A DNA stretch of 40,973 nucleotides from UHGV virus genome UHGV-0256613; one strand, written 5' to 3'. The translations under genes and the position numbers were made by a program. Positions 17,637-40,973 of this stretch are shown here, piece by piece. Source of the DNA: a virus. Position 1 is the first letter of the stretch, and each line of letters begins with the position of its first letter. The notes beneath the pieces were generated by a model that was not told where the DNA came from, did no database searches, and was given only the letters and a program-made list of their open reading frames with translations.

Positions 17637-17640
17637 AGTT

Positions 17641-18309: not shown

Positions 18310-18333
18310 AAAAAAATGCCCGGCGAACCGGGC
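18310..18333 (-). terminator. rho-independent terminator downstream of the minus-strand tRNA
   Basis: On minus strand GCCCGG-uucg-CCGGGC followed by a T7 run. Confidence 0.55.
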
Positions 18334-18573: not shown

Positions 18574-18829
18574 AACGCTGAGAGCACTGGTTTGGCTCGA
18601 TATCAGGTAGGGTGGAACAGCCCGCTAATATCCAATGCTCTCATCGTTGTACCCTCGTCTCTTCCGAGGCGTCACACCGAATCGCCGGGATGGTGAATCC
18701 CCGTGCGCGGAATAAAACCGCTCGACTTGCACATTCCGGCTACCTGGTTCGTTTGCCCGAGCAAGGGAGGGTGCCCCTTAAACGTATCCAGACCGCTATC
18801 GTCGCATGTGCCATACGCCGTACTGCTCA
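18574..18829 (-). ncRNA. candidate structured RNA, right copy, directly 5' of tRNA-Arg
   Basis: Reverse complement is homologous to 11408-11650 with conserved flanks and a diverged central hairpin region; the conserved 3' block AGTGCUCUCAGCGUU abuts the tRNA 5' end. Confidence 0.4.
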
Positions 18830-18902
18830 AAATAAAAGCTCACTCCACCTGTTCAATTTAACGACAAGCCAGTCAGGTTAGTAACCGGAATGAACTCTTT
18901 GG

Positions 18903-18917
18903 TTACCTTAAAGGTAA
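18903..18917. promoter_or_regulatory. TTACC-N5-GGTAA palindrome (copy 2 of 4)
   Basis: TTACCttaaaGGTAA between the right RNA element and the small ORF/portal operon. Confidence 0.4.
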
Positions 18918-19007
18918 TAATTCGTGCATTAAATGTCAACTGTCTACGATAAATAAATCATATGTGGTTAAATTGGTAATAATTTAATTGCGTACGGAGT
19001 CATTGAT

Positions 19008-19214
19008 ATGTGCATGGGTAGCTCACCATCAGTGCCTGCAACACCAGAAGTTCAGGCAGCACCACAGGAGCAGGATGCCGCCGTTGTTGATGCCCGCGAC
19101 GAAGAAACTCGTCGCCGTCGCGCTGCTGCTGGTCGTAGTTCTACGCTGCTTACCGGTTCTCAGGGCGACACATCAACCGCTAATACCAGCGGTAAAACGC
19201 TGCTTGGTCAGTAA
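19008..19214 (+). CDS. hypothetical small protein upstream of portal
   Basis: 68 aa with GGAG SD; the same SD context (ccggagtcattga) recurs before the portal gene. Confidence 0.5.
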   Translation: MCMGSSPSVPATPEVQAAPQEQDAAVVDARDEETRRRRAAAGRSSTLLTGSQGDTSTANTSGKTLLGQ

Positions 19215-19228
19215 CCGGAGTCATTGAA

Positions 19229-20908: not shown

Positions 20909-21201
20909 CAGATTACGAAGACGATCAACTGAAAGAAGAAAACGCCCGTAAGCAACGTGACATGGCACAGCGTGAAATTGATGACATTCGCTTTGTCATG
21001 AGCAGTGAACAGGGGCGTCGCGTTGTCTGGTCTGTGCTGGAGAAAGGCCGGGTGTTTTCCGCTATCTCACCGATGGACGCTATGGCAATGGCATTTAATG
21101 AGGGGCAACGCAATCTGGCGCTGGAACTGTTTCAGCGCGTTATGGCGCATTGCCCTGAACAGTATTTGAAGATGGCCAAAGAGGCCAGTGAACAGGAGTG
21201 A
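20905..21201 (+). CDS. hypothetical head-assembly protein
   Basis: 98 aa; ATGA overlap with the portal stop. Confidence 0.55.
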   Translation: MTDYEDDQLKEENARKQRDMAQREIDDIRFVMSSEQGRRVVWSVLEKGRVFSAISPMDAMAMAFNEGQRNLALELFQRVMAHCPEQYLKMAKEASEQE

Positions 21202-21899
21202 TCATGAATTTATTTGAGCGTTTGCTGTATCGCCGTCTTTGCAATGAGCAACCAGTCGATGGTGGAGCAGCTCCGGCTGCGTCAGAACCGTCAGCGCCTG
21301 CAGGTGATAACCCTGCTCCAGTTGGTGATCCATCACAACAGGAAGGTGATAAGCCACAACCTGTTGCTGATGGCGATAAACCTGCTGATGACAAAAAGCC
21401 TGAAAACGATAAGCAGGATGAAAAAAAGGACGGCGATAAACCAGAGGGTGCGCCTGAGAAGTACGAGTTTCAGGCTGCCGAAGGCGTAGAGCTGGATACA
21501 GAAGCGTTGAAGGAGTTCGAGCCGGTGGCGCGAGAACTTAACCTGACCAACGAGCAAGCGCAAAAGCTGGTTGATGCTTATCCGAAAATTCTGGCAGGTG
21601 TTCAGCAGCGCCAGGCAGAAGCCTGGCAGAAAACAACCGAGCAGTGGGCTGCGGATGTAAAAGCTGACAAAGAAATCGGTGGCGACAAGTTGATTTCTAA
21701 CCTTAGCGCCGCACAGCGTGCGCTTGACCAGTTCGGGACACCTGAACTCAAAGAATATCTGAACACCACCGGGCTGGGTAATCACCCTGATCTGGTCAAA
21801 ACGTTCGTGAAAATCGGAAAGGCTATGTCTGAAGATGGCATGGTCACCGGTGGTAATGAAGGCCAGCGTAGTGCGGCCGAAGTGCTCTATGGCAAATAA
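21198..21899 (+). CDS. scaffolding protein
   Basis: 233 aa; highly acidic, Pro/Asp/Lys-rich N-terminus and helical C-terminus, between portal and capsid genes. Confidence 0.65.
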   Translation: MIMNLFERLLYRRLCNEQPVDGGAAPAASEPSAPAGDNPAPVGDPSQQEGDKPQPVADGDKPADDKKPENDKQDEKKDGDKPEGAPEKYEFQAAEGVELDTEALKEFEPVARELNLTNEQAQKLVDAYPKILAGVQQRQAEAWQKTTEQWAADVKADKEIGGDKLISNLSAAQRALDQFGTPELKEYLNTTGLGNHPDLVKTFVKIGKAMSEDGMVTGGNEGQRSAAEVLYGK

Positions 21900-21913
21900 G
21901 AGAGGAGATAACA

Positions 21914-22900
21914 ATGTCTGTTAAAGGCTTAACTGCGCTAACGCTGGCTGACTGGGGTAAGCGCGTCGATCCAAATGGGAAAGTCGATAAGATTATCGAG
22001 CTTCTCAATCAAACTAACCCAATTCTTCAGGATATGCCTTTTGTTGAAGGAAACCTTCCTACCGGACACCGAACCACCATTCGTTCTGGTTTACCTTCTG
22101 CTACCTGGCGTTTGCTGAACTATGGCGTACAGCCAAGCAAATCAACCACAGTGCAGGTCACCGATTCCATTGGCATGCTGGAAACCTATGCTGAAGTCGA
22201 TAAGTCTCTGGCTGATCTGAACGGTAATACTGCCGAATTCCGTCTGTCTGAAGACCGAGCATTTATTGAAGCGATGAATCAGGCGATGGCGCAGACACTG
22301 TTTTACGGTGATTCCAGCGTTAACCCTCAGCAGTTTATGGGACTGTCCTCCCGCTATTCCAGCCTGTCTGCGGGTAATGCTCAGAACATCATTGATGCTG
22401 GTGGCACGGGTACAGATAACACTTCAATCTGGTTAGTGGTGTGGGGCGAAAACACCGTGCATGGCATCTTCCCGAAAGGACAGAAGGCTGGCATTCAGAT
22501 GGAAGATAAAGGCCAGGTGACACTGGAAGATGCTAAAGGCGGCAAGTACGAAGGTTATCGTACCCATTATAAGTGGGACAACGGGCTGACATTACGTGAC
22601 TGGCGCTATGTAGTTCGTATCGCAAACATTGATGTCAGTAATCTTGACGCTCCTTCTACTGCCGCGAATATCGCAAAACTGATGATTCGTGCCCTTCATC
22701 GAATCCCAAATCGTGGGATGGGACGTCCTGTTTTCTACATGAACAGAACCATTAACGAAGTGCTTGACCTGCAATCTCTGGAGAAGAGTTCTCTGGCGAT
22801 CAGCGTGAAAGAGACAGAAGGCGAATGGTGGACAGCACTTCGTGGTGTGCCGATTCGTGAAACTGACGCACTTCTGGAAACAGAAGCCCGCGTGGTGTAA
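21914..22900 (+). CDS. major capsid protein
   Basis: 328 aa; follows the scaffold gene; strong SD (AGAGGAGA). Confidence 0.8.
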   Translation: MSVKGLTALTLADWGKRVDPNGKVDKIIELLNQTNPILQDMPFVEGNLPTGHRTTIRSGLPSATWRLLNYGVQPSKSTTVQVTDSIGMLETYAEVDKSLADLNGNTAEFRLSEDRAFIEAMNQAMAQTLFYGDSSVNPQQFMGLSSRYSSLSAGNAQNIIDAGGTGTDNTSIWLVVWGENTVHGIFPKGQKAGIQMEDKGQVTLEDAKGGKYEGYRTHYKWDNGLTLRDWRYVVRIANIDVSNLDAPSTAANIAKLMIRALHRIPNRGMGRPVFYMNRTINEVLDLQSLEKSSLAISVKETEGEWWTALRGVPIRETDALLETEARVV

Positions 22901-22951
22901 CGCCTGTTATTAACCTGTGGGCCGCAACAGGCCCACTAATGGAGAAAGAAG

Positions 22952-23389
22952 ATGATCACCGACAAACTGTTGATGTTCTCCGAAGCACAGGCGGTAACTG
23001 ATACCGCGGCTTCTACTGACGTAATCGATCTCGGTCCAATTGACGGAAACCGTCGCGATATCGGTGTGGGTTACCCGCTTGAGTTTTGGGTGCTGGTTAA
23101 CGAAGCCGCCACGGCAAGTGGTGAGGCAACTGTAAACATCCAGTTGCAGACGAGTGAGAATAACAGCTCATGGTCCACTATTTATGATAGTGGCGCACTG
23201 GCAAAGGCCACCCTGACAGCAGGTAAGCGAGTTGTTTCTGCAAAGGTGCCTGCCGGTGTTCAGCGATATCTGCGTGTTAACTACTCCGTCGCAACTGGCC
23301 CACTAACGGCTGGCAAATTCACTGCGGGTATCAATCTTGATGTTGATGCCAATACGCCGTATCCGATCCGCTCAAAAGTAACTGGTTAA
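22952..23389 (+). CDS. hypothetical virion protein
   Basis: 145 aa; strong SD; within structural operon. Confidence 0.6.
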   Translation: MITDKLLMFSEAQAVTDTAASTDVIDLGPIDGNRRDIGVGYPLEFWVLVNEAATASGEATVNIQLQTSENNSSWSTIYDSGALAKATLTAGKRVVSAKVPAGVQRYLRVNYSVATGPLTAGKFTAGINLDVDANTPYPIRSKVTG

Positions 23390-23390
23390 G

Positions 23391-23735
23391 GTGATATTGA
23401 TGTCAGGTGAGAAACCAAGATACCGCGTTCTGCGCCTCTCTCATATCCATAACACTCTGTGGCCGGAGGGGGCAGAAATCGAATACGAAGGTGAGCCTGG
23501 TAGCGCACTGGAACCTGTTAACGATGCAGCCAGACAGGCAAAAGCAAAAGTTGCAGGAAAGGTGTCAATGGCAGCAACCAGCACCAAAATCATCAACGAT
23601 GTGTCAGATGATGGTGAACTGGATAAGCTCCGTGAAGAGTACGAATTGCTCTTTAACGAGAAGCCACACCATAACGCCAAAGCCGAAACGCTCCGCGAGA
23701 AGATCGCAGATAAGCGTAAAGAACTGGGCGTGTAA
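23391..23735 (+). CDS. hypothetical virion protein
   Basis: 114 aa; tightly coupled to the preceding gene; followed by a terminator. Confidence 0.6.
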   Translation: MILMSGEKPRYRVLRLSHIHNTLWPEGAEIEYEGEPGSALEPVNDAARQAKAKVAGKVSMAATSTKIINDVSDDGELDKLREEYELLFNEKPHHNAKAETLREKIADKRKELGV

Positions 23736-23752
23736 GCCTCGCGAATCAGACA

Positions 23753-23773
23753 AGGGGCTTCGGCCCCTTTATT
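23753..23773 (+). terminator. rho-independent terminator after the capsid gene block
   Basis: AGGGGC-ttcg-GCCCCT followed by TTATT; position analogous to T7 T-phi. Confidence 0.65.
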
Positions 23774-23791
23774 GCAGGAGTATAGAAACTT

Positions 23792-24397
23792 ATGGCCTCT
23801 GTAGTAGAGATCTGCAATCGTGCGCTGTCCAATATTGGCAACAGCCGCAGTATTAACAGCCTGACGGAAGCCAGCAAGGAAGCGGGGGAATGTTCGCTGC
23901 ACTTTGAGGCCTGCCGTGATGCTGTGCTTTCTGATTTTGACTGGAACTTTGCTACCAAACGCGTGGCGCTTGCAGATACGAGCAATCCACCGCCTGACTG
24001 GGAATATGCGTACCAGTACCCGTCCGATTGTCTGCGCATTACTGAAATTATGCTTCCTGGTGTACGCAATCCAACAGCAGCAATGCGCGTTCAGTACGAA
24101 GTTGGTGCAGACACCAACGGAACAGGAAAGTTGATCTACACAGACCAGCCGCAGGCATGGCTCAAGTATGTATCTCGCGTTTCAGATGTGAACATGTTTG
24201 ATGCCATTTTTATGGAGGCGTTGGCCTGGCGTCTTGCGGCAGCCATTAACATGGCGCTGACTGGGAATGCAGACCTCGGTACGTTTGCCCTCAATATGTA
24301 CAATCGCGTGATTCTTAGTGCTGGCTCGCATAGCCAGAATGAATCACAGGAACCACAGCCACCGGTTGACGAGTTTACCATTGCGAGGTTGTCCTGA
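23792..24397 (+). CDS. tail tubular protein A (T7 gp11-like)
   Basis: 201 aa; size, position and N-terminal pattern (..NRALSNIG..SINSLTE..) resemble T7 gp11. Confidence 0.6.
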   Translation: MASVVEICNRALSNIGNSRSINSLTEASKEAGECSLHFEACRDAVLSDFDWNFATKRVALADTSNPPPDWEYAYQYPSDCLRITEIMLPGVRNPTAAMRVQYEVGADTNGTGKLIYTDQPQAWLKYVSRVSDVNMFDAIFMEALAWRLAAAINMALTGNADLGTFALNMYNRVILSAGSHSQNESQEPQPPVDEFTIARLS

Positions 24398-26868
24398 TGG
24401 CTATCAGTTGGATCCAGCCCAGCTTTGCCGGTGGTGAGATTGGACCGTCGTTGTACGGACGTATCGACATGGCGAAGTACCAGGTGGCATTGCGCAAGTG
24501 CGATAACTTTATCGTGCGGCAGTATGGCGGCGTTGAGAATCGACCAGGTACGCGTTTTGTCGGTGCCGCAAAATACCCAAATCGGAAATGCCGCCTGATC
24601 CCGTTCCAGTTCTCGACGGTTCAGACCTATGCTCTGGAGTTCGGACACCAGTACATGCGCGTTATCAAAGATGGTGCGTTGGTGCTGAACAGCAGCAATG
24701 TTATTTATGAAATTGCCACGCCATATACTGAAGCCGATCTGTTCCGAATTAAATTCACGCAAAGCGCCGACGTGCTTACGCTGGTTCACCCGGCATACCC
24801 GCCGAAAGAGTTGCGCCGCTACGCGCATGACAACTGGCAACTGGTTGATGTGGTAACGAAGAACGGGCCATTTGAAGATATCAATATTGACGAGTCAGTG
24901 ACGGTTTATGCCAGCGCCAGCACCGGGACAATTACGTTAACGGCAAGCGCCTCTATTTTTGGCGCGGAGCAGGTAGGCAAATTGTTCTATCTGGAACAGC
25001 CTGCAGTGGATTCAGTGCCGGTATGGGAAACCAGTAAGAGTACGTCGATTGGCGATATTCGCCGTGCAGACAGTAATTACTATCGCGCCGTTACAGCAGG
25101 CAAAACAGGCACTTTGCGCCCTTCGCATACAGAAGGCACATCATGGGATGGCTGGGGCGGCTCCGGTGATGATGATACTGGCATTGAGTGGGAGTATCTG
25201 CACAGTGGTTTTGGCATTGCCCGTATCACTGCTGTAAACGGCACTACTGCAACTGCCGAGGTGATTTCCTATATCCCTTCGCAGGTCGTTGGCGAGGATA
25301 ATGCCAGCTATAAATGGGCTAAATATGCCTGGAACAGTGTTAATGGTTATCCTGGCACTGTTGTTTATTATCAACAACGTCTTTACTTCGCCGCATCGAC
25401 TGCGTTCCCTCAGACTATCTGGGCCAGCCGTACCGGGGATTATAAGGATTTTGGCAAAAGCAATCCTACGCAGGATGACGACAGAATTATCTACACCTAT
25501 GCCGGGCGTCAGGTTAATGAGATCCGCCACCTGATTGATGTTGGTTCGCTGGTGGCGCTGACTTCCGGAGGTGAGTACGTCATCACCGGCGACCAGAACA
25601 AAGTGTTAACCCCATCATCATTTGCATTCAGCTCTCAGGGATCAAATGGCTCAAGCAACGTCCCACCAATTGCTGTGGCGAATATTGCTCTGTTCGTCCA
25701 GGAGAAAGGCAGTGTTGTCCGTGATCTGGCCTACTCATTCGATGTTGACGGCTATCAGGGGAACGACCTTACTATCCTTGCCAATCATCTTTTTCAGAAG
25801 CACAGCATTGTTGACTGGTGCTTCTCTATTGTCCCTTACTCCAGCGCCTTCTGCATTCGTGATGACGGTAAATTACTGGTGATGACCTATTTGCGTGATC
25901 AACAGGTTTTTGCATGGGCACCACAGTCCAGTACCGGAAAATATGAAAGCACATGCAGTATCAGCGAAGGCAATGAAGATGCGGTGTATTTCGTCATTAA
26001 CCGAACCGTTAACGGGCAAACAGTGAGATACATCGAGCGACTGTCCAGCCGTTTATTTACCAGCGATGAAGATGCTTTCTTTGTTGATTCTGGCCTTAGC
26101 TATGATGGAAGAAATACGTCTGACAGAACGATGACCATCACTGGTGGTTCTGGTGAATGGGATTACCGTGCGGAATATACAATCAGTGTTTCTGGTGGTG
26201 CGTACTTCACCAGTAGTGATGTCGGCGCGCAACTACAGTTCCCTTATACCGGAACTGATCCTGATACTGGCGATGAAGTGTCAAAAGAATTACGTTGCGA
26301 CATTATTTCTGTAACCAGCAATACCGCAGTAGTGGTTCGTGCTAACAGGAACGTCCCGCCATCCCTCAGGAATGTGGCCACCACGAACTGGCAGATGGCG
26401 CGCCGGACATTTGGCGGCTTGTCTCATCTTGAAGGCCAGACCGTAAACATCCTCTCTGATGCGAACGTGGAACCACAAAAAGTGGTTTCCGGAGGTGCCG
26501 TCACGCTGGAATCACCGGGGGCTGTTGTGCACATCGGCCTGCCAATAACTGCTGAATTCGAAACACTGGATATCAACATTAACGGACAGGAAACGCTGCT
26601 GGACAAAAAACAGGTGATCCCGTCCGTTACTCTGGTTGTGAATGCCAGTCGCGGCATCTGGGCGACTACGCCCGGCGGTAAATGGTACGAATATCCACAG
26701 CGTGAATTCGAGTTCTACGATGATCCTGTTGATGATGCTACCGGAAAAGTAGAAGTGAAGCTGGACAGTAACTGGGGCAAAAACGGGCGTGTAAAAATCC
26801 GTCAGCTTGACCCGTTGCCGCTGTCTGTTCTTGCCGTTATTCCTCGCCTTACTGTTGGGGGATTCTGA
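24397..26868 (+). CDS. tail tubular protein B (T7 gp12-like)
   Basis: 823 aa; overlapping start; size and order match T7 gp12. Confidence 0.65.
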   Translation: MAISWIQPSFAGGEIGPSLYGRIDMAKYQVALRKCDNFIVRQYGGVENRPGTRFVGAAKYPNRKCRLIPFQFSTVQTYALEFGHQYMRVIKDGALVLNSSNVIYEIATPYTEADLFRIKFTQSADVLTLVHPAYPPKELRRYAHDNWQLVDVVTKNGPFEDINIDESVTVYASASTGTITLTASASIFGAEQVGKLFYLEQPAVDSVPVWETSKSTSIGDIRRADSNYYRAVTAGKTGTLRPSHTEGTSWDGWGGSGDDDTGIEWEYLHSGFGIARITAVNGTTATAEVISYIPSQVVGEDNASYKWAKYAWNSVNGYPGTVVYYQQRLYFAASTAFPQTIWASRTGDYKDFGKSNPTQDDDRIIYTYAGRQVNEIRHLIDVGSLVALTSGGEYVITGDQNKVLTPSSFAFSSQGSNGSSNVPPIAVANIALFVQEKGSVVRDLAYSFDVDGYQGNDLTILANHLFQKHSIVDWCFSIVPYSSAFCIRDDGKLLVMTYLRDQQVFAWAPQSSTGKYESTCSISEGNEDAVYFVINRTVNGQTVRYIERLSSRLFTSDEDAFFVDSGLSYDGRNTSDRTMTITGGSGEWDYRAEYTISVSGGAYFTSSDVGAQLQFPYTGTDPDTGDEVSKELRCDIISVTSNTAVVVRANRNVPPSLRNVATTNWQMARRTFGGLSHLEGQTVNILSDANVEPQKVVSGGAVTLESPGAVVHIGLPITAEFETLDININGQETLLDKKQVIPSVTLVVNASRGIWATTPGGKWYEYPQREFEFYDDPVDDATGKVEVKLDSNWGKNGRVKIRQLDPLPLSVLAVIPRLTVGGF

Positions 26869-27332
26869 TGGTCGATGTTCAAATTATTCCCGCTACCGAA
26901 GAGCATCTTCAGATGATTTTGCCGGATGTTCGTCAGGCTGATATTGACGAACTGTATGCGGTATCGCTGATGACTACCGAAGATGCGCTGCGTGTTGGTC
27001 TGCGCACTGCGACTATGGCCTGGTCAGGATTTGCGAACGGAGAACTGGTAACCATGTTTGGCGTATCTCCGGCGTCAATGATCGGTGGCAATGGTACGCC
27101 CTGGCTGGTAGGAACCAGCCGTATTGAAAAATATCAGAAGACATTTCTGCGCCACTGCCGCCCTGTATTGCAGCAGATGCTGGCAGTTTATCCGCGCCTG
27201 GAAAACTACGTCGACGAGCGAAACCATGTTGCCAAAGCATGGCTGCACTGGCTTGGATTCAGGCTTGAAGAAGCCGCGCCTTATGGTGCTCTTGGTCTTA
27301 ATTTCCACAGATTTCACATGGAGAGAAAATAA
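26868..27332 (+). CDS. internal virion protein (gp13 position)
   Basis: 154 aa; ATGA-coupled. Confidence 0.55.
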   Translation: MVDVQIIPATEEHLQMILPDVRQADIDELYAVSLMTTEDALRVGLRTATMAWSGFANGELVTMFGVSPASMIGGNGTPWLVGTSRIEKYQKTFLRHCRPVLQQMLAVYPRLENYVDERNHVAKAWLHWLGFRLEEAAPYGALGLNFHRFHMERK

Positions 27333-27895
27333 TGTGCGATCCGGTTATTGCTGGTGGCGCAATGCTCGCCATGAGTGGCATTCAGGCATACACCCAGTAC
27401 CAACAGGGAAGGTATGCCTCGAAGGTTGCAGAAGCGAACGCAGATATAGCCACAGCTCAGGCAAATGATGCAATAAACAGGGGTAACGCTGAAGCTGAGC
27501 AACGGCGCAGAGAGACCCGACAGCGGCTTGGTACACAGGCGGCGACAATGGGGGCTACCGGTGCGGAATTAAGTAGCGGAACAGCTCTTGACGTTTTTGC
27601 GGATAATGCTCAGTTCGGCACTCTTGATGCGTTAACGACAGTGAATAATGCTCAGCGTGAGGCATATGGGTATCAGGTTCAGGGAATGAATGCTCAGGCA
27701 CAGGGGGCTGCTGCTCAGTCGGCTGCTAAATCATCGATGACCAGCACTTTGTTAACGGCACCACTAAAAGCATACGGTGCATATAAGTTGGGTAGCGGAA
27801 GTATCAATCCGATTAGTAAGCAAGGAAACACGCCAATGTTATCTAACTCAGGTTTTATGAATTCTGACTCCCGATTCAAAATAGGAGGTTACTGA
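27332..27895 (+). CDS. internal virion protein (gp14 position)
   Basis: 187 aa; hydrophobic N-terminus, Ala/Gln-rich. Confidence 0.55.
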   Translation: MCDPVIAGGAMLAMSGIQAYTQYQQGRYASKVAEANADIATAQANDAINRGNAEAEQRRRETRQRLGTQAATMGATGAELSSGTALDVFADNAQFGTLDALTTVNNAQREAYGYQVQGMNAQAQGAAAQSAAKSSMTSTLLTAPLKAYGAYKLGSGSINPISKQGNTPMLSNSGFMNSDSRFKIGGY

Positions 27896-35083: not shown

Positions 35084-36022
35084 ATGACGAGTATAGCAAC
35101 AGCGGTATCTACTATCAACGTGCCATTCCACGGCGCAGAGCTTTATGTTGTCAATCACAACGGTGAACCGTATACCCCAATGAAACCTATCGTTGAGGGA
35201 ATGGGGCTAGACTGGAAATCTCAACATAAGAAGATTTCTCAACGCTTCTCGAAGGGTATGGTGGAAATCACCATACCTTCTGCCGGTGGGGTGCAAGCCA
35301 TGATTTGTATGGCTTTACGAAAATTGGCAGCTTGGTTGAACAGCATCAGTCCAAACAAAGTACGCCCTGAAATCCGCGACAAGGTAATCCAGTATCAGGA
35401 AGAGTGTGACGATGTGCTCTACGATTACTGGACTAAAGGCCATGTAGTTAACCCACGCAAAGCTAAAAAGGCGTTGCCGGGTAAAATCACCACTGAACAG
35501 CAGGAAGCCATTAAACAACTCGTCATGAGTCGCGGTCAGTCTCTGCCAAAAGAAAAACAGGCTAAGGCGATGATCACCATGTGGTCGTCACTGAAATCTC
35601 ATTTTGGCTGTTCGTACAAAGAAATTGATGAAGATCAATTCGCCGAAGCGTTGTCTCTTGTTGCTCGGGTTCCGCTTGAAGGGGAGTATCTCCCTGCTGG
35701 ATCTGCATCAGAGAATGATGAAGTGGCAGTCAAGATGTTAGATGCGCTTCGTGAGGCAATTAAAACACAGACAAAATGTTATGGTTATCCGCTGAAGCCC
35801 GGCTACCGCAGTTTGATTCACTCGCCGTCTGGTGTTCTCGGCCTGACGGAGAACTCACTGCTGATGAATCTGCTGAACCAGTTACAGGAAGACGGGCACG
35901 ACGTATCGGGTGCGGCGGCGGAACTGACCACCATGTTCTGCTACATCGTCGGTGTGAGTAAATGCCTGCGTGATATCCAGACCCACGCGGAGTACATCAA
36001 CGACAAGGCAGGGTTCTTCTGA
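35084..36022 (+). CDS. ant: antirepressor Ant (AntA-type N-terminal domain, shared C-terminal domain)
   Basis: 312 aa; N-terminus ...MKPIVEGMGLDWKSQHKKIS...; C-terminal ~85 aa nearly identical to the C-terminus of the 37274-37966 protein. Confidence 0.8.
   Translation: MTSIATAVSTINVPFHGAELYVVNHNGEPYTPMKPIVEGMGLDWKSQHKKISQRFSKGMVEITIPSAGGVQAMICMALRKLAAWLNSISPNKVRPEIRDKVIQYQEECDDVLYDYWTKGHVVNPRKAKKALPGKITTEQQEAIKQLVMSRGQSLPKEKQAKAMITMWSSLKSHFGCSYKEIDEDQFAEALSLVARVPLEGEYLPAGSASENDEVAVKMLDALREAIKTQTKCYGYPLKPGYRSLIHSPSGVLGLTENSLLMNLLNQLQEDGHDVSGAAAELTTMFCYIVGVSKCLRDIQTHAEYINDKAGFF
35780..36022. repeat. left arm of ~245-bp inverted repeat (antirepressor C-terminal coding region)
   Basis: Reverse complement is near-identical by eye to 37274-37520 (a handful of mismatches). 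Confidence 0.8.
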
Positions 36023-36073
36023 CAGAACGGCGGCACAGGGATGTGCAAAACGGAACTATCGTGACATGTCACA

Positions 36074-36097
36074 GGCCGCTTTCGCGGCCTTGTTTTT
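36074..36097 (+). terminator. rho-independent terminator after ant (preceded by GTGACATGTCAC palindrome at 36061-36072)
   Basis: GGCCGC-tttc-GCGGCC followed by TTGTTTTT; identical hairpin recurs at 39327-39350. Confidence 0.6.
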
Positions 36098-36257
36098 AAC
36101 GAATGCCACCGCCACCCGGGCGGGAATCCGCAGAACGCCCACCGCAGCGGGAGCCGTCAGCAGCAGTGTCGCTGTCGTGCTGACAACGACCGGCAAAGGC
36201 CTGAGTTGAAGCTACCAGAGACAACAAAACGAACAGTGCAGCAAATGCTTTTTTCAT
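36096..36257 (-). CDS. possible small secreted peptide
   Basis: MKKAFAALFVLLSLVASTQAFAGRCQHDSDTAADGSRC...; clear signal-peptide-like N-terminus but weak SD and GC-rich; uncertain. Confidence 0.3.
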   Translation of the reverse strand: MKKAFAALFVLLSLVASTQAFAGRCQHDSDTAADGSRCGGRSADSRPGGGGIR

Positions 36258-36328
36258 TGTGAAATTTCCATCTATAAGCCACCTCAATGTGGCGTCAATG
36301 AGTGTAGCACTGACTTTTGTTTCGTCCA

Positions 36329-36350
36329 CAAAAAAGCCCGCAGCGCGGGC
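36329..36350 (-). terminator. rho-independent terminator (minus strand)
   Basis: On minus strand GCCCGC-gcu-GCGGGC followed by TTTTTT, directly after the stop of the 36351-36899 gene. Confidence 0.55.
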
Positions 36351-36899
36351 TTACTTTTCTTCAGGTTTGTTGTCTTCAGATTTCTTCTTGATGCTTGGTT
36401 TTTGTCTAAGAACGAAAATACCAGCCACTGCAACAACTGTACCGATCACTGTGCCAGCTAGAACTTCATGACCTGTTAAACCTAATAATGTTGCACAAGC
36501 TACTGTAAAAATAGTTGCACTCAGGCCAAACCACTGCCCACGTTTATCTCTATTAATAGCCCCGTCAAGTGCCTTTTCCTCCATTTTCTGGCGGTGAGCA
36601 AACTCCTTCTCCGTCAGCTGGAAGATGCGTTCGGGGGCATCAGGTAAAATATCCTGATACCCGCGAAGCAGATAGGGGGGAGGAAGCGGACCCTGAAACG
36701 CATGGTGAGCGACAACTATCTCCTGAATTTCAGGGCGATCAAGAACTCTTGTGAAGGCATCTGGGTGTTGAATGATCTCGTTACTTAGCCCTTCCTCAAC
36801 TTCCTCGAACTCAGTTTCTTCGTTATCACTTGGTTGCCCAATAGATTTTTGCATATTTGTCGAAGGACATTCCTTTAGCTTCTGGTTTTCCTCTTGCAT
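36351..36899 (-). CDS. membrane protein (acidic N-terminus, two C-terminal TM helices)
   Basis: 182 aa; C-terminal WFGLSATIFTVACATLLGLTGHEVLAGTVIGTVVAVAGIFVL; start uncertain (internal Met at residue 16). Confidence 0.6.
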   Translation of the reverse strand: MQEENQKLKECPSTNMQKSIGQPSDNEETEFEEVEEGLSNEIIQHPDAFTRVLDRPEIQEIVVAHHAFQGPLPPPYLLRGYQDILPDAPERIFQLTEKEFAHRQKMEEKALDGAINRDKRGQWFGLSATIFTVACATLLGLTGHEVLAGTVIGTVVAVAGIFVLRQKPSIKKKSEDNKPEEK

Positions 36900-37152
36900 T
36901 TGAGTTTTTCCCTGTCACTATTGCCCATTTTCCGCCAGCAGGCGCTGCAATTTTTTTTCCGTTCTTTACTATATATTCAGCATAAACACGATTTTCTGAC
37001 CGTCTGAGATCGTCTCCGACCATATTCATGTCTCTTGATATAACTTTGACGACAGAGTCTCGGTTTAAAGCCTTGGCATAGTTGGAGCCAGGAACGATAC
37101 CCAAAGGGGTGCCAGACTCTATAGCCAGCTCCTTGACATATCTTCTGCTCAT
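36826..37152 (-). CDS. hypothetical protein
   Basis: 108 aa from ATG at 37152 with GAGGT SD; overlaps the next gene's 5' end. ORF track extends to 37167. Confidence 0.45.
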   Translation of the reverse strand: MSRRYVKELAIESGTPLGIVPGSNYAKALNRDSVVKVISRDMNMVGDDLRRSENRVYAEYIVKNGKKIAAPAGGKWAIVTGKNSNARGKPEAKGMSFDKYAKIYWATK

Positions 37153-37273
37153 ATGAACCTCAACCAATCGACTTTACCAATCGGGTAATTTTAAACATGA
37201 GTATAATGCTTTTAACTGCAACGAGTGTAAACAATTATTGATAATTGTAGGCACATCCCTGTGCCGCCGCCCG

Positions 37274-37520
37274 TCAGAAGAACCCTGCTTTGTCGTTGAT
37301 GTACTCCGCGTGCGTCTGGATATCACGCAGGCATTTGCTCACACCGACGATGTAGCAGAACATGGTGGTCAACTCCGCCGCCGCGCCCGATACGTCGTGC
37401 CCGTCTTCCTGTAACTGGTTTAGCAGATTCATCAGCAGTGAGTTCTCCGTCAGGCCGAGAACACCAGACGGCGAATGAATCAGGCTGCGGTAGCCGGGCT
37501 TCAGTGGGGCGCTGTAGGTT
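37274..37520. repeat. right arm of ~245-bp inverted repeat (antirepressor C-terminal coding region)
   Basis: Near-identical to reverse complement of 35780-36022. Confidence 0.8.
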
Positions 37521-37966
37521 TTGTTCTCTACCTTCATTGCCTGCATCACTGCTGATGCTGTGGCGTTGGCTACCTGGTCGGCAACCATCTTTATGCGTTC
37601 TTCCTGCGGGAGCGAGTTTTTAATGTAACTTCCGGTGCGGCGGATCTGAGGAAGAACCTCACCTGTAACCCATTCAAGAAATCTGAATGCTCTCGTTCCC
37701 TCAGTCATTGCCTCTTTGCAACGCAGAATAAGGATGTAGAGACCTGATTCTGAAACGATGGATAGTTCTTGTATTCCACCAGGGGTCTGTATTGAATACA
37801 GCCCCTTTTTGTTCCAGCCTTTTTTATCAAGTTTTCTCGCTTGTGTAACATCAATATTCAAAGCATTGCACACATCTTTGGTGACAAACCAAGGTTCTCC
37901 GTCAATCATGAACATACGGATCTGGCAGGATGACTCAAAGGAAAAGATGGAAGGTTTGGTATTCAT
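37274..37966 (-). CDS. antirepressor paralog (Bro-N-type N-terminal domain, shared Ant C-terminal domain)
   Basis: N-terminus MNTKPSIFSFESSCQIRMFMIDGEPWFVTKDVCNALNI... (Bro-N-like); C-terminal ~85 aa shared with Ant at 35084-36022. ORF track extends to 38011. Confidence 0.75.
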   Translation of the reverse strand: MNTKPSIFSFESSCQIRMFMIDGEPWFVTKDVCNALNIDVTQARKLDKKGWNKKGLYSIQTPGGIQELSIVSESGLYILILRCKEAMTEGTRAFRFLEWVTGEVLPQIRRTGSYIKNSLPQEERIKMVADQVANATASAVMQAMKVENKTYSAPLKPGYRSLIHSPSGVLGLTENSLLMNLLNQLQEDGHDVSGAAAELTTMFCYIVGVSKCLRDIQTHAEYINDKAGFF

Positions 37967-38015
37967 AGCGATCACCTTTGTAGTTAGGTTAATCACCACC
38001 GCTGAGACCAATCAG

Positions 38016-38098
38016 ATGGTGGTGAACTGTGCAGAGTTGGTCTTACCGGCTACAAAGGAACCCGGCGCACCTTTCGGTGCCCCCACACAGCCCACCAT
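38016..38098. repeat. diverged duplicate of 9184-9266 (leader/N-terminal module with GNRA hairpin)
   Basis: ggtggtgaactg..cccggcgcacctttcggtgcccccac..cagcccaccata shared by both loci; here encodes only a 28-codon relic (MVGCVGAPKGAPGSFVAGKTNSAQFTTI*) upstream of the Bro-N antirepressor. Confidence 0.7.
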
Positions 38099-38233
38099 AG
38101 AATAGGTGCGCTTTACACATAAAAAAACCGCTTATGCGGCATATGTGCCTCTGTAGTAATCCGGGAGACCAATCCCGGCACTGGATTTTGCCAGTGCCCG
38201 ATTACTATGGCACAAGAGGAGTGCAATGTAAAT

Positions 38234-38248
38234 TTACCGAAAAGGTAA
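38234..38248. promoter_or_regulatory. TTACC-N5-GGTAA palindrome (copy 3 of 4)
   Basis: TTACCgaaaaGGTAA in the divergent region between the Bro-N antirepressor and the two-gene module. Confidence 0.4.
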
Positions 38249-38326
38249 TAATAAATGCATAACTCACGTTATTTCAACCCTATATGGTTTGATTTATCCC
38301 ATTTCAGAAAATACCTGCCTATTTTT

Positions 38327-38356
38327 TTGCCAGTATGCGTATACTTTCGATAGAAT
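38327..38356 (+). promoter_or_regulatory. candidate sigma70 promoter for the two-gene module
   Basis: TTGCCA (38327-38332), 18-nt spacer, TAGAAT (38351-38356); AT-rich upstream region. Confidence 0.35.
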
Positions 38357-38373
38357 GTTTACCCTAGAGGTAG

Positions 38374-38829
38374 TTGGGGGTGCCCGTGAACACGAAGAGA
38401 GCTACAGTAATGCAGCATTTGAGGAAATCAGAAAAAAATAAAGACCATGAAATATTGAGTAAGGCCATTGTTCGGGCTTCCAATAATACTGTTATACCTC
38501 ATGCTGAAGAGTCTGGACAGAAATTTCTTATTCGGTATTTCACTGAAAATAGTGCAGTTGAGGAGATTTTAAAACATCAGGGAGGGGAATTTAAATGTGG
38601 AAAACTGGCAGATTATGTTCGTCGTGAAACGTCTGAACAAGAAGTATATTATGCTGATATTAATCATAAGTCAGGTGTGAAAATTGTAATAGGCTATTAC
38701 ACAACTCCCAAAAATGTTATGCATGAGGTCCCAAAGATGTCCGTCGAGAAATCTCATGCAATCTCGCGCAGGATGTTTGCACGCACTGCCGAAGATATGG
38801 CTCAGGAGCTCTACGACGATGCTGAATAA
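38374..38829 (+). CDS. hypothetical protein, upstream partner of the YafO-like gene (start uncertain: TTG 38374 or ATG 38410)
   Basis: 139-151 aa; AT-rich; stop overlaps the downstream start by 11 nt (ATGCTGAATAA). Confidence 0.6.
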   Translation: MGVPVNTKRATVMQHLRKSEKNKDHEILSKAIVRASNNTVIPHAEESGQKFLIRYFTENSAVEEILKHQGGEFKCGKLADYVRRETSEQEVYYADINHKSGVKIVIGYYTTPKNVMHEVPKMSVEKSHAISRRMFARTAEDMAQELYDDAE

Positions 38830-39325
38830 ATTCCAGGGGTTGGTTCACCCTGGAATTTTTGGGAAGGACCCTGAGCTAATACCTATCAAAAACGCGTTCA
38901 TAGATCACTGGCGCTACGGTCATCATAAGGATTTCGGAAAGGACACTCTGTTTCGGGATCCACCGAAAGAAATGCTGGAATATCACATACGCCACGTTCA
39001 CGTAAACATCGGAAACTATACTGACAAGTTTGGTGAGAGCGGTACGGAACAATGCTGGAAAAACTGGGCGTCTGGGAAGAAAGACAAGACCACTAACAAG
39101 CATAAAAAGATCCCAACCAGTGACGTGTATGTGATTTATCTGGTCACATCTGAACGCCATGCCTTCCTTCTGGATTATTGGGATGAACCAGCACATAAGA
39201 CAGTAGAAATTGACGAGCAGAAGCAAAAATTAGTTGTCGAGTGTGACAGAATTTTGCGGCTGAAAAAGTTAGAATCCATGCCGCGCGATGCTAGTTTGTG
39301 GGACCCAGAATTTTACGACTGTTAA
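38819..39325 (+). CDS. YafO-family-like toxin-domain protein (putative)
   Basis: 168 aa; motifs GIFGKDPEL / DFGKDTLF, HIRHVHVNIGN and DVYVIYLVTSERHAFLLDYWDEPAHK parallel recalled YafO motifs (IFGRDALYDD, HIHLAN, HLVYCQGAFDEQAWLLIAILKPEPHK); AGGAG SD. Confidence 0.55.
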   Translation: MLNKFQGLVHPGIFGKDPELIPIKNAFIDHWRYGHHKDFGKDTLFRDPPKEMLEYHIRHVHVNIGNYTDKFGESGTEQCWKNWASGKKDKTTNKHKKIPTSDVYVIYLVTSERHAFLLDYWDEPAHKTVEIDEQKQKLVVECDRILRLKKLESMPRDASLWDPEFYDC

Positions 39326-39326
39326 T

Positions 39327-39350
39327 GGCCGCTTTCGCGGCCTTTTCTTT
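39327..39350 (+). terminator. rho-independent terminator after the two-gene module
   Basis: GGCCGC-tttc-GCGGCC followed by TTTTCTTT; same hairpin as 36074-36097. Confidence 0.6.
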
Positions 39351-39606
39351 ATGTGGTTTGTTTTCGTAATTGTTCGGCACAATAGTCGAGATGTGTTTGC
39401 AGATCCTGCATAGACATCTGTGAGCTGGTGACGTAGTTAATCAGTGCAGTCAGTTCGGCAAGTGGGCCATCGACATTAAATCCATCCTTATCGAGATCCC
39501 GGAGTAATTTCATCAAGTGCGATCCCTCCACCAGTGACCTGACGCCTCCCGGCGTGTGAATCCTTTCGGTAAATCCGTCTTCCAGTGGATAGTGATACTG
39601 CTGCAT
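39349..39606 (-). CDS. small protein homologous to the antirepressor C-terminal domain only
   Basis: 85 aa from ATG with GGAGAAG SD; PGGVRSLVEGSHLMKLLRDLDKDGFNVDGPLAELTALINYVTSSQMSMQDLQTHLDYCAEQL parallels the Ant C-terminus. ORF track extends to 39729. Confidence 0.5.
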   Translation of the reverse strand: MQQYHYPLEDGFTERIHTPGGVRSLVEGSHLMKLLRDLDKDGFNVDGPLAELTALINYVTSSQMSMQDLQTHLDYCAEQLRKQTT

Positions 39607-39682
39607 CTTATCTTCTCCATGCAATAACTGTATGTTTATACAGTAACAAATAATTTGTTTGCTATCCAGCACGTTTTGCAAA

Positions 39683-39697
39683 TTACCCGAAAGGTAA
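39683..39697. promoter_or_regulatory. TTACC-N5-GGTAA palindrome (copy 4 of 4; 7-bp arms ATTACC..GGTAAT)
   Basis: aATTACCcgaaaGGTAATa between the divergent small Ant-C gene and the tailspike gene. Confidence 0.4.
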
Positions 39698-39801
39698 TAT
39701 CTATTGGTATTTATAGTCTTTTTATCCATATATGGTTTTTCAGGTAATAGAATAACCAGATATGCGGCGCAACGGGTGCTGCGACTATCTGGAGATTTAA
39801 C

Positions 39802-40973
39802 ATGACGGTCTCAACCGAAGTTGACCACAACGAATACACCGGTAACGGCGTTACGACATCGTTTCCGTATACTTTTCGAATTTTCAGAAAATCAGACCTG
39901 GTTGTTCAGGTGTCTGATCTGAACGGAAACGTAACAGAATTGGTCCTGGATACCGGTTATACGGTAACTGGGGCGGGCACTTATAGTGGCGGTTCTGTGG
40001 TTCTTCCGTCTCCGCTTGCTACTGGATGGCGAATTACGATAGATCGTGTGCTTGATGTAGTGCAGGAGACAGACCTTCGCAATCAGGGAAAATTTTTCCC
40101 CGAAGTGCATGAAGATGCCTTTGACTACCTGACGATGCTGATCCAGCAATGTTTTGGGTGGTTCAGACGTGCATTGATGAAGCCCTCTCTGCTTGCAAAA
40201 TATTACGATGCAAAGCAAAACAGAATTTCTAACCTTGCAGATCCATCACTTGAGCAGGATGCTGTAAATAATCGCTCAATGCGTAATTATGTCGATGCTG
40301 CAATCGCCGGGGTTGTTGGTGGTTTTGGTTGGTTTATTCAGTATGGTTCTGGGGCTGTGTACCGAACGTTCCAGGATAAGATGAGAGACACCATTAGTGT
40401 TCGTGATTTTGGTGCAAAAGGAGACGGCATAACAGATGATACTGTAGCAATTCAAAATGCTATTAATGCAGTACCAGAAGGGGCTATACTTGGATTTTAT
40501 GGTGGTGAATTTGTTTTTGATAAGGTTGAATTGTTTAAGCCAATAACATTAGTTGGTGATGCAACGTTAATTCACAACGGATTTAGAATAAAATCTAGCA
40601 GAATCCGATCACTTTTATCTGGCGTTCAGAAATGCAAGGATTACTCCGAGTCTTCAAGAGCATTTTATTGCTATGCAAATGAAGACCAAAGAGATTATGA
40701 CGATATTCAGATTTTATTTAATAGATTTGAAGGTTTCTTTTACTCTACGGCATTTGTTGCAAAAAACTATTATTTGGAGAATGACCCTAATTCAAGAATT
40801 GTCAAAAACACAAAAGTAATAGGGTGTACATCAGTTGCTCCTGATTCTGTAAATGCCGGTCATTTTCAACATATAGGCGTTACAAATGCTGAAACATCAC
40901 ATAACTCAACTTATGGCGGACAAAATGCAACATCATACAACTTCATTAACCAGAATGGATTTGTAAGGATTAT
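39802..40973 (+). CDS. tailspike/tail fibre (T7-type N-terminal adaptor; pectate-lyase-like start of receptor-binding domain), 3'-truncated at window end
   Basis: Open frame from ATG 39802 (GGAGAT SD) to the window end: MTVSTEVDHNEYTGNGVTTSFPYTFRIF... then ...ISVRDFGAKGDGITDDTVAIQNAINAVPEG; not in ORF track because no stop is reached. Confidence 0.8.
   Translation, partial: MTVSTEVDHNEYTGNGVTTSFPYTFRIFRKSDLVVQVSDLNGNVTELVLDTGYTVTGAGTYSGGSVVLPSPLATGWRITIDRVLDVVQETDLRNQGKFFPEVHEDAFDYLTMLIQQCFGWFRRALMKPSLLAKYYDAKQNRISNLADPSLEQDAVNNRSMRNYVDAAIAGVVGGFGWFIQYGSGAVYRTFQDKMRDTISVRDFGAKGDGITDDTVAIQNAINAVPEGAILGFYGGEFVFDKVELFKPITLVGDATLIHNGFRIKSSRIRSLLSGVQKCKDYSESSRAFYCYANEDQRDYDDIQILFNRFEGFFYSTAFVAKNYYLENDPNSRIVKNTKVIGCTSVAPDSVNAGHFQHIGVTNAETSHNSTYGGQNATSYNFINQNGFVRI

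What the first reader, a model, noticed from the sequence alone, without database searches (positions are those of the whole stretch)
38327..39350. AT-rich two-gene module with a YafO-toxin-like second gene: candidate toxin-antitoxin or abortive-infection system
Two plus-strand genes (38374/38410-38829 and 38819-39325) overlap by 11 nt (ATGCTGAATAA), have their own candidate promoter (TTGCCA-N18-TAGAAT) and terminator (39327-39350), and are markedly more AT-rich than the flanking phage core. The second protein has motifs I recognise from YafO-type ribosome-dependent mRNA interferases; the first has no family I recognise and is larger than typical antitoxins, so the pairing may be a non-canonical partner. 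It lies in the accessory island between the core proteins and the tailspike, flanked by TTACC-N5-GGTAA palindromes.
Basis: partly seen in the sequence, partly recalled or inferred. Interest (0 to 1): 0.75.

Follow-up and report, generated by a model that had tools for sequence, protein, structure and literature searches.

The report
Prophage YafO-like toxin–antitoxin gene pair
This is a two-gene toxin–antitoxin cassette carried as accessory cargo by a temperate E. coli phage: the second gene is a distant relative of the YafO RNA-cutting toxin, and the first is an undescribed kind of antidote that shares only its last ~35 residues with its relatives.

Summary
Two + strand genes (38386/38410-38829 and 38819-39325) overlap by 11 nt. 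A 10/12 promoter match precedes them and a hairpin plus T-run follows. The AT-richness is modest (42.9% GC against 48.0% for the window).

Gene 2 gives no direct hit in Pfam, NCBIfam or PADLOC. It is still a divergent member of the YafO superfamily:
- 10 of 11 close homologues hit PF13957 weakly.
- A profile search leads to bona fide YafO proteins.
- hhalign against a YafO alignment gives 99.5% probability.
- All family-invariant residues are kept.

Gene 1 has no known family and no confident fold. In every homologous locus a YafO-like gene follows an overlapping upstream gene of 53-183 aa. The N-terminal parts of these partners are unrelated to each other. Their last ~35 residues share a motif that co-varies with the toxin clade.

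The best reading is a type II toxin–antitoxin module with a tail-mediated, domain-swapping antitoxin, inserted as a moron beside antirepressor genes. A defence or addiction role was not tested. The TTACC-N5-GGTAA palindromes are real, but they form a dispersed operator-like set that also occurs in a related phage lacking the module.

The parts
38327..38356 (+). Candidate sigma-70 promoter of the module: -35 TTGCCA 38327-38332, 18-nt spacer, -10 TAGAAT 38351-38356
   Evidence: 10 of 12 matches. The -35 region and T-tract are conserved in loci L017-L029 while the flanks diverge.
38359..38373 (.). TTACCCTAGAGGTAG, a one-mismatch copy of the TTACC-N5-GGTAA palindrome, directly after the module's -10. 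Possible operator; the binding protein is unknown.
   Evidence: Conserved as TTACC(C/T)TA(A/G)AGGTAG in L017, L018, L024 and L025.
38386..38829 (+). Gene 1, putative antitoxin: 147 aa from GTG 38386 (alternative ATG 38410 gives 139 aa). No known family (PHROG 9503, unknown function).
   Evidence: AF2 gives pLDDT 43.8, so no confident fold.
38719..38826 (+). Segment coding the conserved C-terminal tail of gene 1 (residues 112-147, MHEVPKMSVEKSHAISRRMFARTAEDMAQELYDDAE), the inferred toxin-neutralising element
   Evidence: Nearly invariant across partners whose N-terminal parts are unrelated. It is 79% identical at nucleotide level in L004 while 31 of 36 residues stay the same, so the constraint is on the protein. 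Tail identity tracks toxin identity, rho 0.81. Predicted as two helices, 120-131 and 135-145, at low confidence.
38804..38808 (+). AGGAG Shine-Dalgarno for gene 2, inside the end of gene 1 and 10 nt before the ATG (translational coupling)
   Evidence: conserved as GGAG/GGAGGA in clade A loci
38819..39325 (+). Gene 2, putative toxin: 168 aa, divergent YafO-superfamily protein with a RelE/HigB-like fold (PHROG 1651). Family-invariant residues are F27, G40, D42, H61, Y107 and H126. Relative to K-12 YafO it has an insertion of about 35 residues (about 63-98) and a C-terminal extension.
   Evidence: PGAP names it 'type II toxin-antitoxin system YafO family toxin'.
39327..39350 (+). Intrinsic terminator: GGCCGC-TTTC-GCGGCC followed by TTTTCTTT
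   Evidence: Homology with phiV10-type phages that lack the module resumes at 39327/39349.
38234..38248 (.). TTACCGAAAAGGTAA palindrome abutting the -10 (TATTAT) of the leftward promoter of the BRO-N antirepressor-like gene. This is context, not part of the module.
39683..39697 (.). TTACCCGAAAGGTAA palindrome upstream of the leftward 85-aa gene 39349-39606. It belongs to a ~60-bp promoter/operator region duplicated from 38231-38290. Context only.

Best explanation
The two genes form a type II toxin–antitoxin operon carried as a self-contained moron, with its own promoter and terminator. It sits in the accessory island of a temperate podophage, between a BRO-N antirepressor-like gene and the tailspike.

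Shown by computation:
- Gene 2 is a divergent member of the YafO superfamily with a RelE/HigB-type fold, and it keeps every residue that is invariant across that family.
- In every related locus it is preceded by an overlapping, translationally coupled gene.
- Only the last ~35 residues of that partner are conserved, and their sequence tracks the toxin clade. The N-terminal part (0 to ~150 residues) is swapped among unrelated sequences.

Inferred:
- The tail of gene 1, probably two short helices, binds gene 2 and blocks it.
- The free gene 2 product acts like E. coli YafO, a ribosome-dependent mRNA endonuclease that arrests translation.
- The antitoxin is labile, so any event that stops its resynthesis frees the toxin. 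Such events include loss of the prophage or transcription shut-off by a superinfecting phage.

Biological role is a guess. Abortive infection or superinfection exclusion seems slightly more likely than plain prophage addiction. The confidence figure refers to the toxin–antitoxin mechanism, not to the role.
For: Toxin identity:
- BLASTP against K-12 YafO gives E 0.002 over the FG[KR]D...HxH block.
- 10 of 11 close homologues hit PF13957 (best E 1.6e-5).
- A profile search of 1.84 billion representatives found 71 hits. Of the 53 sequences scanned (the window protein, 51 of those hits and K-12 YafO), 32 are PF13957-positive.
- hhalign of the gene 2 family against a K-12 YafO alignment gives 99.5% probability, E 3.3e-23, over 141 columns.
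- Invariant columns F27, G40, H61, Y107 and H126 are shared with K-12 YafO.
- The AF2 model has pLDDT 96.8 and pTM 0.91.

Pairing:
- All 32 distinct pairs compared (31 locus pairs plus TL-2011b gp44/45) have an upstream gene overlapping by 4, 11, 14 or 26 nt.
- Tail identity against toxin identity gives Spearman 0.81. The N-terminal part gives 0.34.
- Many pairs have toxins at least 75% identical and tails 63-89% identical while the N-terminal parts are about 1-29% identical (most under 20%).
- The tail is constrained at protein level.
- Partners of bona fide PF13957 proteins and of intermediate relatives mostly show the same tail pattern.

Cassette nature:
- Promoter and terminator are present.
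- phiV10 has only ~310 bp at this position.
- TL-2011b carries a different gene in this slot and a second YafO-like pair one slot over.

Known activity of YafO: ribosome-dependent mRNA cleavage, neutralised by YafN (PMC2814082; PMC7781912).
Against: - The window protein itself does not reach any Pfam, NCBIfam or PADLOC threshold.
- Part of the hhalign target alignment was recruited by the query profile, so that test is not fully independent.
- Gene 1 has no detectable DNA-binding or antitoxin domain and no confident fold, so autoregulation is not shown.
- Similarity of the tail to the YafN C-terminus is not significant.
- The co-variation statistics ignore shared ancestry.
- Some tail conservation is forced by dual coding: the invariant Asp codon GAT supplies part of the toxin ATG, and the Shine-Dalgarno lies in the tail.
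- No toxicity, neutralisation or phage phenotype was or could be tested here.
Confidence: 0.78

Rival explanations
1. The molecular pair is the same (toxin plus antitoxin), but it only acts as a selfish addiction or stabilisation cassette. It kills or arrests cells that lose the prophage or the cassette and has no anti-phage function.
For: This is the classical behaviour of type II modules on mobile elements (established knowledge). No PADLOC defence model matches either protein. The module is rare and patchy: 39 of 5,426 E. coli genomes, 2 distinct phages (3 records) of 50,697 records and 6 plasmid records. That pattern fits a selfish cassette hopping between slots.
Against: An integrated prophage is rarely lost by segregation, so addiction gives little benefit. 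The cassette sits in a moron hotspot next to antirepressor and tailspike genes, where superinfection-exclusion cargo is usually found (inference). One distant relative lies beside a type I R-M gene.
Confidence: 0.35
2. The module serves the phage's own development rather than the lysogen. Its promoter carries the same operator-like palindrome as the neighbouring antirepressor-type genes. It would therefore be silent in the lysogen and switched on with them at induction or infection, for example to damp host translation in a controlled way.
For: TTACCCTAGAGGTAG lies directly after the module's -10. It is conserved in related loci. The same palindrome abuts the -10 of three leftward promoters in the island. 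In a related prophage it also lies in the cI-like/cro-like intergenic region.
Against: The protein that binds the palindrome is unknown, and no binding was tested. The window's own early region is of a different (lambdoid) type and has no copy of the palindrome. Co-expressing the antitoxin would neutralise the toxin anyway.
Confidence: 0.1
3. It is not a toxin–antitoxin pair. Gene 2 would be a RelE-fold protein that has lost nuclease activity or has another role, and gene 1 would be an unrelated small phage protein that merely overlaps it.
For: Gene 2 fails all curated thresholds. It carries a ~35-residue insertion and a C-terminal extension absent from K-12 YafO. Gene 1 has no antitoxin signature.
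Against: All family-invariant residues are retained. The two-gene arrangement is conserved down to about 30% toxin identity. The partner tail co-varies with the toxin while everything else in the partner is replaced, which is hard to explain without a physical interaction.
Confidence: 0.07

Closest known systems
E. coli K-12 YafN–YafO (type II TA; toxin in Pfam PF13957 YafO_toxin, antitoxin in Phd/YefM PF02604)
   Same: The toxin is homologous at profile level (hhalign 99.5%). It keeps the FG[KR]D, HxH, (L/I)xY and AH motifs. The antitoxin gene comes first and the toxin gene follows directly. The expected activity is ribosome-dependent mRNA cleavage (PMC2814082, PMC7781912).
   Different: Only about 18% of aligned positions are identical to K-12 YafO, and the protein is below the Pfam threshold. 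The toxin is 168 aa against 132 aa, with an insertion of about 35 residues bearing a conserved CW..W and a C-terminal helix and extension. The antitoxin has no Phd/YefM domain. It is 147 aa with an unclassifiable N-terminal part. The genes overlap by 11 nt, whereas yafN and yafO are separated by 2 nt. It is prophage cargo, not part of the SOS-regulated dinB operon.
RelE/HigB/YoeB family of ribosome-dependent mRNA interferases (RelE/ParE superfamily)
   Different: There is no sequence-level similarity (PDB phmmer found nothing), and Foldseek is not significant. Gene 2 is about twice the size of RelE.
Escherichia phage TL-2011b gp45–gp44 (annotated YafO family toxin) and the 'yafO/ydaS-like' pair of Salmonella prophage mTmII
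   Same: Both are prophage-borne YafO-like pairs in accessory regions. TL-2011b gp44 is 32% identical to gene 2. It has a 59-aa overlapping partner ending in the same type of tail...VSRAFFDSRNNKENYEFVCVAE. The mTmII pair was noted as a possible TA in a prophage that reduces phage sensitivity (PMC9836087).
   Different: The TL-2011b pair is on the other strand, one slot to the left, and its partner is minimal (59 aa). The link between the mTmII pair and this module was not examined, and neither pair has been tested experimentally according to the papers found.

Membership tests
YafO toxin family (Pfam PF13957) | Match to the PF13957 profile above the gathering score (25 bits) | tested here: not met
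   No hit for the window protein even at E<=10. 10 of 11 close homologues give weak hits, best E 1.6e-5. K-12 YafO scores 135 bits as a control.
YafO toxin family (Pfam PF13957) | Profile-level homology to bona fide YafO proteins | tested here: met
   hhalign of A1 against A6 (K-12 YafO first row) gives 99.5% probability, E 3.3e-23, 141 columns. 32 of 53 sequences scanned are PF13957-positive; the set is the window protein, 51 profile-search hits and K-12 YafO. Caveat: most A6 rows were recruited by the A1 profile.
YafO toxin family (Pfam PF13957) | Retention of the residues invariant across the family | tested here: met
   F27, G40, H61, Y107 and H126 are invariant, and D42 and P48/49 nearly so, in alignments that include K-12 YafO.
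YafO toxin family (Pfam PF13957) | RelE-superfamily fold | tested here: met
YafO toxin family (Pfam PF13957) | Ribosome-dependent mRNA cleavage and growth arrest on expression | not testable with these tools
   Requires expression and RNA mapping experiments.
YafN / Phd-YefM antitoxins (PF02604) | N-terminal Phd/YefM domain | tested here: not met
   No Pfam hit for gene 1 or for nine other partner types. K-12 YafN hits PF02604 as a control.
YafN / Phd-YefM antitoxins (PF02604) | C-terminal toxin-binding tail homologous to that of YafN | tested here: inconclusive
   hhalign gives P 0.14, although the register is the same: S, I[ST] and the terminal E align over 29 ungapped columns. In a C-terminus-anchored PSSM, K-12 YafN lies about 3 SD above 582 unrelated C-termini, and 205 of 20,000 shuffles reach its score.
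Type II toxin–antitoxin system (general) | Two adjacent co-oriented small genes, coupled, with a toxin of a known toxin superfamily | tested here: met
   11-nt overlap with the Shine-Dalgarno inside gene 1. Toxin homology as above.
Type II toxin–antitoxin system (general) | Cognate specificity: antitoxin and toxin co-vary | tested here: met
   Tail against toxin identity gives rho 0.81 over 32 distinct pairs, and the four tail types match the four toxin clades. Not corrected for phylogeny.
Type II toxin–antitoxin system (general) | Antitoxin with a DNA-binding domain that autoregulates the operon | tested here: not met
   No DNA-binding domain was detected, and the AF2 model of gene 1 is unstructured or low confidence. 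Binding itself is not testable here.
Type II toxin–antitoxin system (general) | Toxicity of the toxin alone and neutralisation by direct protein–protein binding | not testable with these tools
Known anti-phage defence / abortive infection systems (PADLOC-DB v2) | Match to a model of a known or candidate defence protein | tested here: not met
   0 families for both proteins at E<=10.
Known anti-phage defence / abortive infection systems (PADLOC-DB v2) | Reduces plating of phages on a host carrying it | not testable with these tools
   Requires plaque assays.

The most novel reading that the evidence does not exclude
The exchangeable N-terminal parts of the antitoxin are not spacers or DNA-binding domains. 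They would be interchangeable sensor modules, each recognising a different trigger such as a protein of an invading phage. The constant C-terminal tail would be the leash that holds the YafO-like RNase. The family would then be a modular sensor–effector abortive-infection system, diversifying by N-domain swapping in the moron hotspot of P22-like and epsilon15-like prophages.
Probability: 0.12. Interest if true: 0.7.

Novelty: new variant of a known kind. Interest (0 to 1): 0.38.

Why it matters
- It adds a prophage-borne clade to the poorly studied YafO toxin family. No solved structure was found by sequence or fold search. The clade has a distinctive insertion that current Pfam and NCBIfam models miss.
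- It defines an unannotated antitoxin family recognisable only by a ~35-residue C-terminal tail. That signature could be used to find YafO-type partners that domain-based tools overlook.
- If the module excludes other phages, it would be a new defence cargo of temperate coliphages. The swapped N-terminal domains would then deserve study as possible sensors.
- As it stands it is a plausible but ordinary toxin–antitoxin moron.

Tried and rejected
- **Direct family scans.** Pfam, NCBIfam and PADLOC gave nothing for either protein. PHROGs gave only unknown-function families.
- **PDB sequence search.** Only chance-level hits.
- **Foldseek of the gene 2 model.** No significant hit against BFVD or the PDB. 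The afdb50 library was unavailable.
- **AF2 of gene 1.** pLDDT was 43.8, so no fold search was attempted.
- **Is the gene 1 tail homologous to the YafN C-terminus?** BLASTP and hhalign were not significant, and an anchored PSSM test was only suggestive. Left as inconclusive.
- **Is tail conservation due to an overlapping longer gene 2 ORF (38714-39325) or to DNA-level constraint?** Rejected. The in-frame extension is not conserved, and most of the nucleotide differences in the tail (23 of 111 positions in L004) leave the residue unchanged (31 of 36 residues identical).
- **Do the palindromes mark the ends of the mobile unit or an antitoxin operator?** Rejected as specific to the module. They occur at many other promoters and in phiV10, which lacks the module. 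Different antitoxin N-termini share the same palindrome.
- **Search for the protein that binds the palindrome.** Pfam scans of neighbouring genes found no regulator.
- **Species-representative genomes.** Only one locus was found.
- **Weak HicA-like resemblance in one partner type.** Not significant, E 0.12.

Full report
**What is in the sequence**

Between the leftward BRO-N antirepressor-like gene (37274-37966) and the leftward 85-aa gene (39349-39606) lie two rightward ORFs. The tailspike starts at 39802, after the 85-aa gene.

- Gene 1 runs to TAA at 38827-38829. Gene 2 starts at ATG 38819 and ends at 39325, so the overlap ATGCTGAATAA is 11 nt.
- An AGGAG at 38804-38808 inside gene 1 serves gene 2.
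- Homologues of gene 1 conserve MNTKR... from an ATG at the position of GTG 38386. I therefore prefer 38386, as PGAP does, over ATG 38410.
- The longer in-frame ORF for gene 2 (from 38714) is not conserved in relatives.
- A 10/12 promoter match (TTGCCA-18-TAGAAT, 38327-38356) and a GC hairpin plus T-run (39327-39350) bracket the pair.
- GC content is only moderately low: 42.9% against 48.0% for the window, which is the 11th percentile. The right flank is lower still.

**Context**

- The stretch 38200-39400 is 100% identical to Escherichia phage EC.W1-9 and to prophages in 39 of 5,426 complete E. coli genomes.
- Window 36071-40973 is 99.9% identical to the corresponding stretch of EC.W1-9 and of a guaA-integrated prophage of strain Ecol_881, and 14774-27683 is 99.7% identical to that same prophage. 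The early region 1-14800 is lambdoid or Stx-phage-like.
- phiV10 has only ~310 bp where the module sits.
- TL-2011b has a different gene in this slot and a second YafO-like pair one slot to the left.
- The pair therefore behaves as exchangeable cargo (a moron) in a hotspot beside antirepressor genes. BRO-N proteins act as antirepressors in a related Uetakevirus (PMC9782041).

**Gene 2**

Direct scans found nothing in Pfam, NCBIfam or PADLOC, and PHROG 1651 has no function. PGAP nevertheless names the protein a YafO family toxin, so I tested that name.

- BLASTP against K-12 YafO gives a weak match, E 0.002 over 54 residues.
- 10 of 11 close homologues hit PF13957 weakly.
- A profile of these homologues, searched against 1.84 billion representatives, found 71 proteins. 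Of 53 sequences scanned (the window protein, 51 of these hits and K-12 YafO added by hand), 32 are PF13957-positive.
- hhalign of the gene 2 family against an alignment headed by K-12 YafO gives 99.5% probability, E 3.3e-23, over 141 columns. Most rows of that target alignment were recruited by the query profile, so the test is not fully independent.
- Five columns are invariant across the whole set: F27, G40, H61, Y107 and H126. D42 is nearly invariant.
- Relative to K-12 YafO, gene 2 has an insertion of about 35 residues with a conserved CW..W, plus a C-terminal extension.
- AF2 with 62 sequences gives pLDDT 96.8 and pTM 0.91.
- This agrees with the published placement of YafO in the RelE superfamily and with its ribosome-dependent mRNA cleavage (PMC2814082, PMC7781912).

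I conclude that gene 2 is a divergent YafO-superfamily protein that falls below the curated thresholds.

**Gene 1**

Gene 1 has no Pfam, NCBIfam or PADLOC family, and PHROG 9503 has no function. AF2 gives pLDDT 43.8. The informative evidence is comparative.

- Homologues found by sequence share a nearly invariant C-terminal 36 residues, MxEVPKMSVEKSHAISRRMFARTAEDMAQELYDDAE. Their N-terminal parts fall into several unrelated types.
- I extracted the gene upstream of every gene 2 homologue in 40-odd loci. An overlapping partner of 53-183 aa is always present.
- The partner tails form four types that match the four toxin clades:
  - A: ...ELYDDAE
  - B: MPRVKKMSFTEAC.LSRELSDSREERL.RASFDGPE
  - C: IKRIKKLSSAESKEISFRQLNSLETHMKEEEFDVFE
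  - D: TRIPEISQEERHALSVKLFNERLTRSVEEDFDVAE
- Tail identity tracks toxin identity (Spearman 0.81), and the N-terminal part does not (0.34). Many pairs have toxins at least 75% identical and tails 63-89% identical while the N-terminal parts are about 1-29% identical, mostly under 20%. These statistics are not corrected for shared ancestry.
- Between the window and a Klebsiella locus the tail is 79% identical at nucleotide level while 31 of 36 residues are unchanged, so selection acts on the protein.
- Part of the conservation is forced. The invariant Asp codon GAT supplies two bases of the toxin ATG, and the Shine-Dalgarno lies in the tail.
- Partners of bona fide PF13957 proteins and of intermediate relatives are also short and unannotated. 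Most of them (L057, L063, L064, TL-2011b gp45), though not L060 or L061, end with the same pattern: h-S-x2-E-x4-[IL]-S ... [FY]-D.
- The minimal partners (53-65 aa) are little more than the tail.

This is what is expected of an antitoxin that neutralises through its C-terminal segment and tolerates any N-terminal appendage.

**Is the tail the same as the YafN C-terminus?**

By eye the K-12 YafN tail, RPSAARLEEITRRAEQYLNDMTDDDFNDFKE, has the same spacing: 29 residues from the Ser to the terminal Glu. hhalign does place it in that register. The scores are not significant: P 0.14 in hhalign, and about 1% of shuffles reach its score in an anchored PSSM test. I leave this as inconclusive.

**Mechanism**

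The best-supported reading is a type II toxin–antitoxin operon.

- Coupled translation produces the antitoxin and the toxin.
- The antitoxin tail binds and blocks the YafO-like RNase.
- If antitoxin synthesis stops, the free toxin cleaves ribosome-bound mRNA and arrests growth.

Homology, pairing and co-variation are shown. Binding, lability of the antitoxin, nuclease activity and toxicity are inferred. No DNA-binding domain is detectable, so autoregulation by the antitoxin is not supported.

The biological role is open. The cassette sits in a moron hotspot and has its own signals, which fits a defence or exclusion function in the lysogen. However, no known defence model matches, and a purely selfish addiction cassette fits equally well.

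**The palindromes**

- TTACC-N5-GGTAA occurs 6 times exactly in the window against 0.01 expected, plus 2 one-mismatch copies.
- Three copies abut the -10 of leftward promoters in the island: 37174, 38234 and 39683.
- One near-copy lies right after the module's own -10 (38359-38373).
- The motif also occurs in phiV10, which lacks the module, and upstream of the partner gene in nearly all related loci, whatever the partner's N-terminus.
- In the Ecol_881 prophage it lies in the cI-like/cro-like intergenic region.

It is therefore most likely an operator of a phage regulator that controls moron promoters, not a boundary of the module or an antitoxin operator. The binding protein was not identified. 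The window's own early region has no copy.

**Novelty and verdict**

- The toxin's family name is already in RefSeq annotation. No paper found describes or tests this module. Only a passing mention exists of a yafO-like pair in another prophage (PMC9836087).
- The antitoxin family and its tail-only conservation appear undescribed.
- I classify the pair as a new variant of a known kind (a YafO-type type II TA) of moderate interest.
The AT-richness and the meaning of the palindromes were overstated.

Noticed in passing
window 15542-15556, 15560-15574 (1 mismatch), 18279-18293, 18903-18917, 37174-37188, 38234-38248, 38359-38373 (1 mismatch), 39683-39697; also L054 9827-9841 and others, L055, L056: The TTACC-N5-GGTAA palindrome is strongly over-represented: 6 exact copies against 0.01 expected. 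It sits at promoters of leftward accessory genes, abutting their -10. It is also present in phiV10 and TL-2011b, and in the cI-like/cro-like intergenic region of a related E. coli prophage. It is probably a dispersed operator set of a phage regulator. The binder is unknown, and the window's own early region has no copy.
   Followed up: partly
L056 (phage TL-2011b) 333-1032, minus strand; equivalent slot in window 36351-37152: TL-2011b carries a second YafO-like pair, gp44 (181 aa, 32% identical to gene 2) and gp45 (59 aa, same type of tail), preceded by the same palindrome. In the window that slot holds another overlapping leftward pair: a 108-aa hypothetical protein (36826-37152) and a DUF2335 membrane protein (36351-36899), overlapping by 74 nt.
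   Followed up: partly
window 38231-38290 and 39680-39738; ORFs 37274-37966 (-) and 39349-39606 (-): A ~60-bp promoter/operator stretch is duplicated on either side of the module. The 85-aa gene on the right shares a C-terminal motif (G[HF][DN]V.G...DLQTH) with the BRO-N protein on the left. In other clades the module directly follows a same-strand gene ending in this motif.
   Followed up: partly
window 35792-36046: This stretch is a 95% identical inverted partial copy of the BRO-N gene region (L054 37251-37504).
   Followed up: no
window 1-14800 versus 14774-27683 and 36071-40973: The genome is mosaic. The early region resembles lambdoid and Stx-converting phages (cI, O, Rha, Dam). The structural region and accessory island match the phiV10/epsilon15-like prophage of strain Ecol_881 at 99.7-99.9%.
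   Followed up: partly
window 18497-18573 (-): A tRNA-Arg (anticodon TCT) lies on the minus strand between the terminase and portal genes, flanked by two of the palindromes.
   Followed up: no
proteins P0156, P0171, P0183, P0191: Four very large proteins (723-3,067 aa) match the YafO-like profile in 6-10 separate stretches each. This suggests arrays of YafO-like domains in giant proteins.
   Followed up: no
L059/L060 and L063: Distant YafO-like relatives lie directly beside a fused type I R-M methylase/specificity gene. In another contig one lies next to a BrnT/BrnA pair and a reverse transcriptase gene. This is a hint of defence-island context for parts of the family.
   Followed up: no
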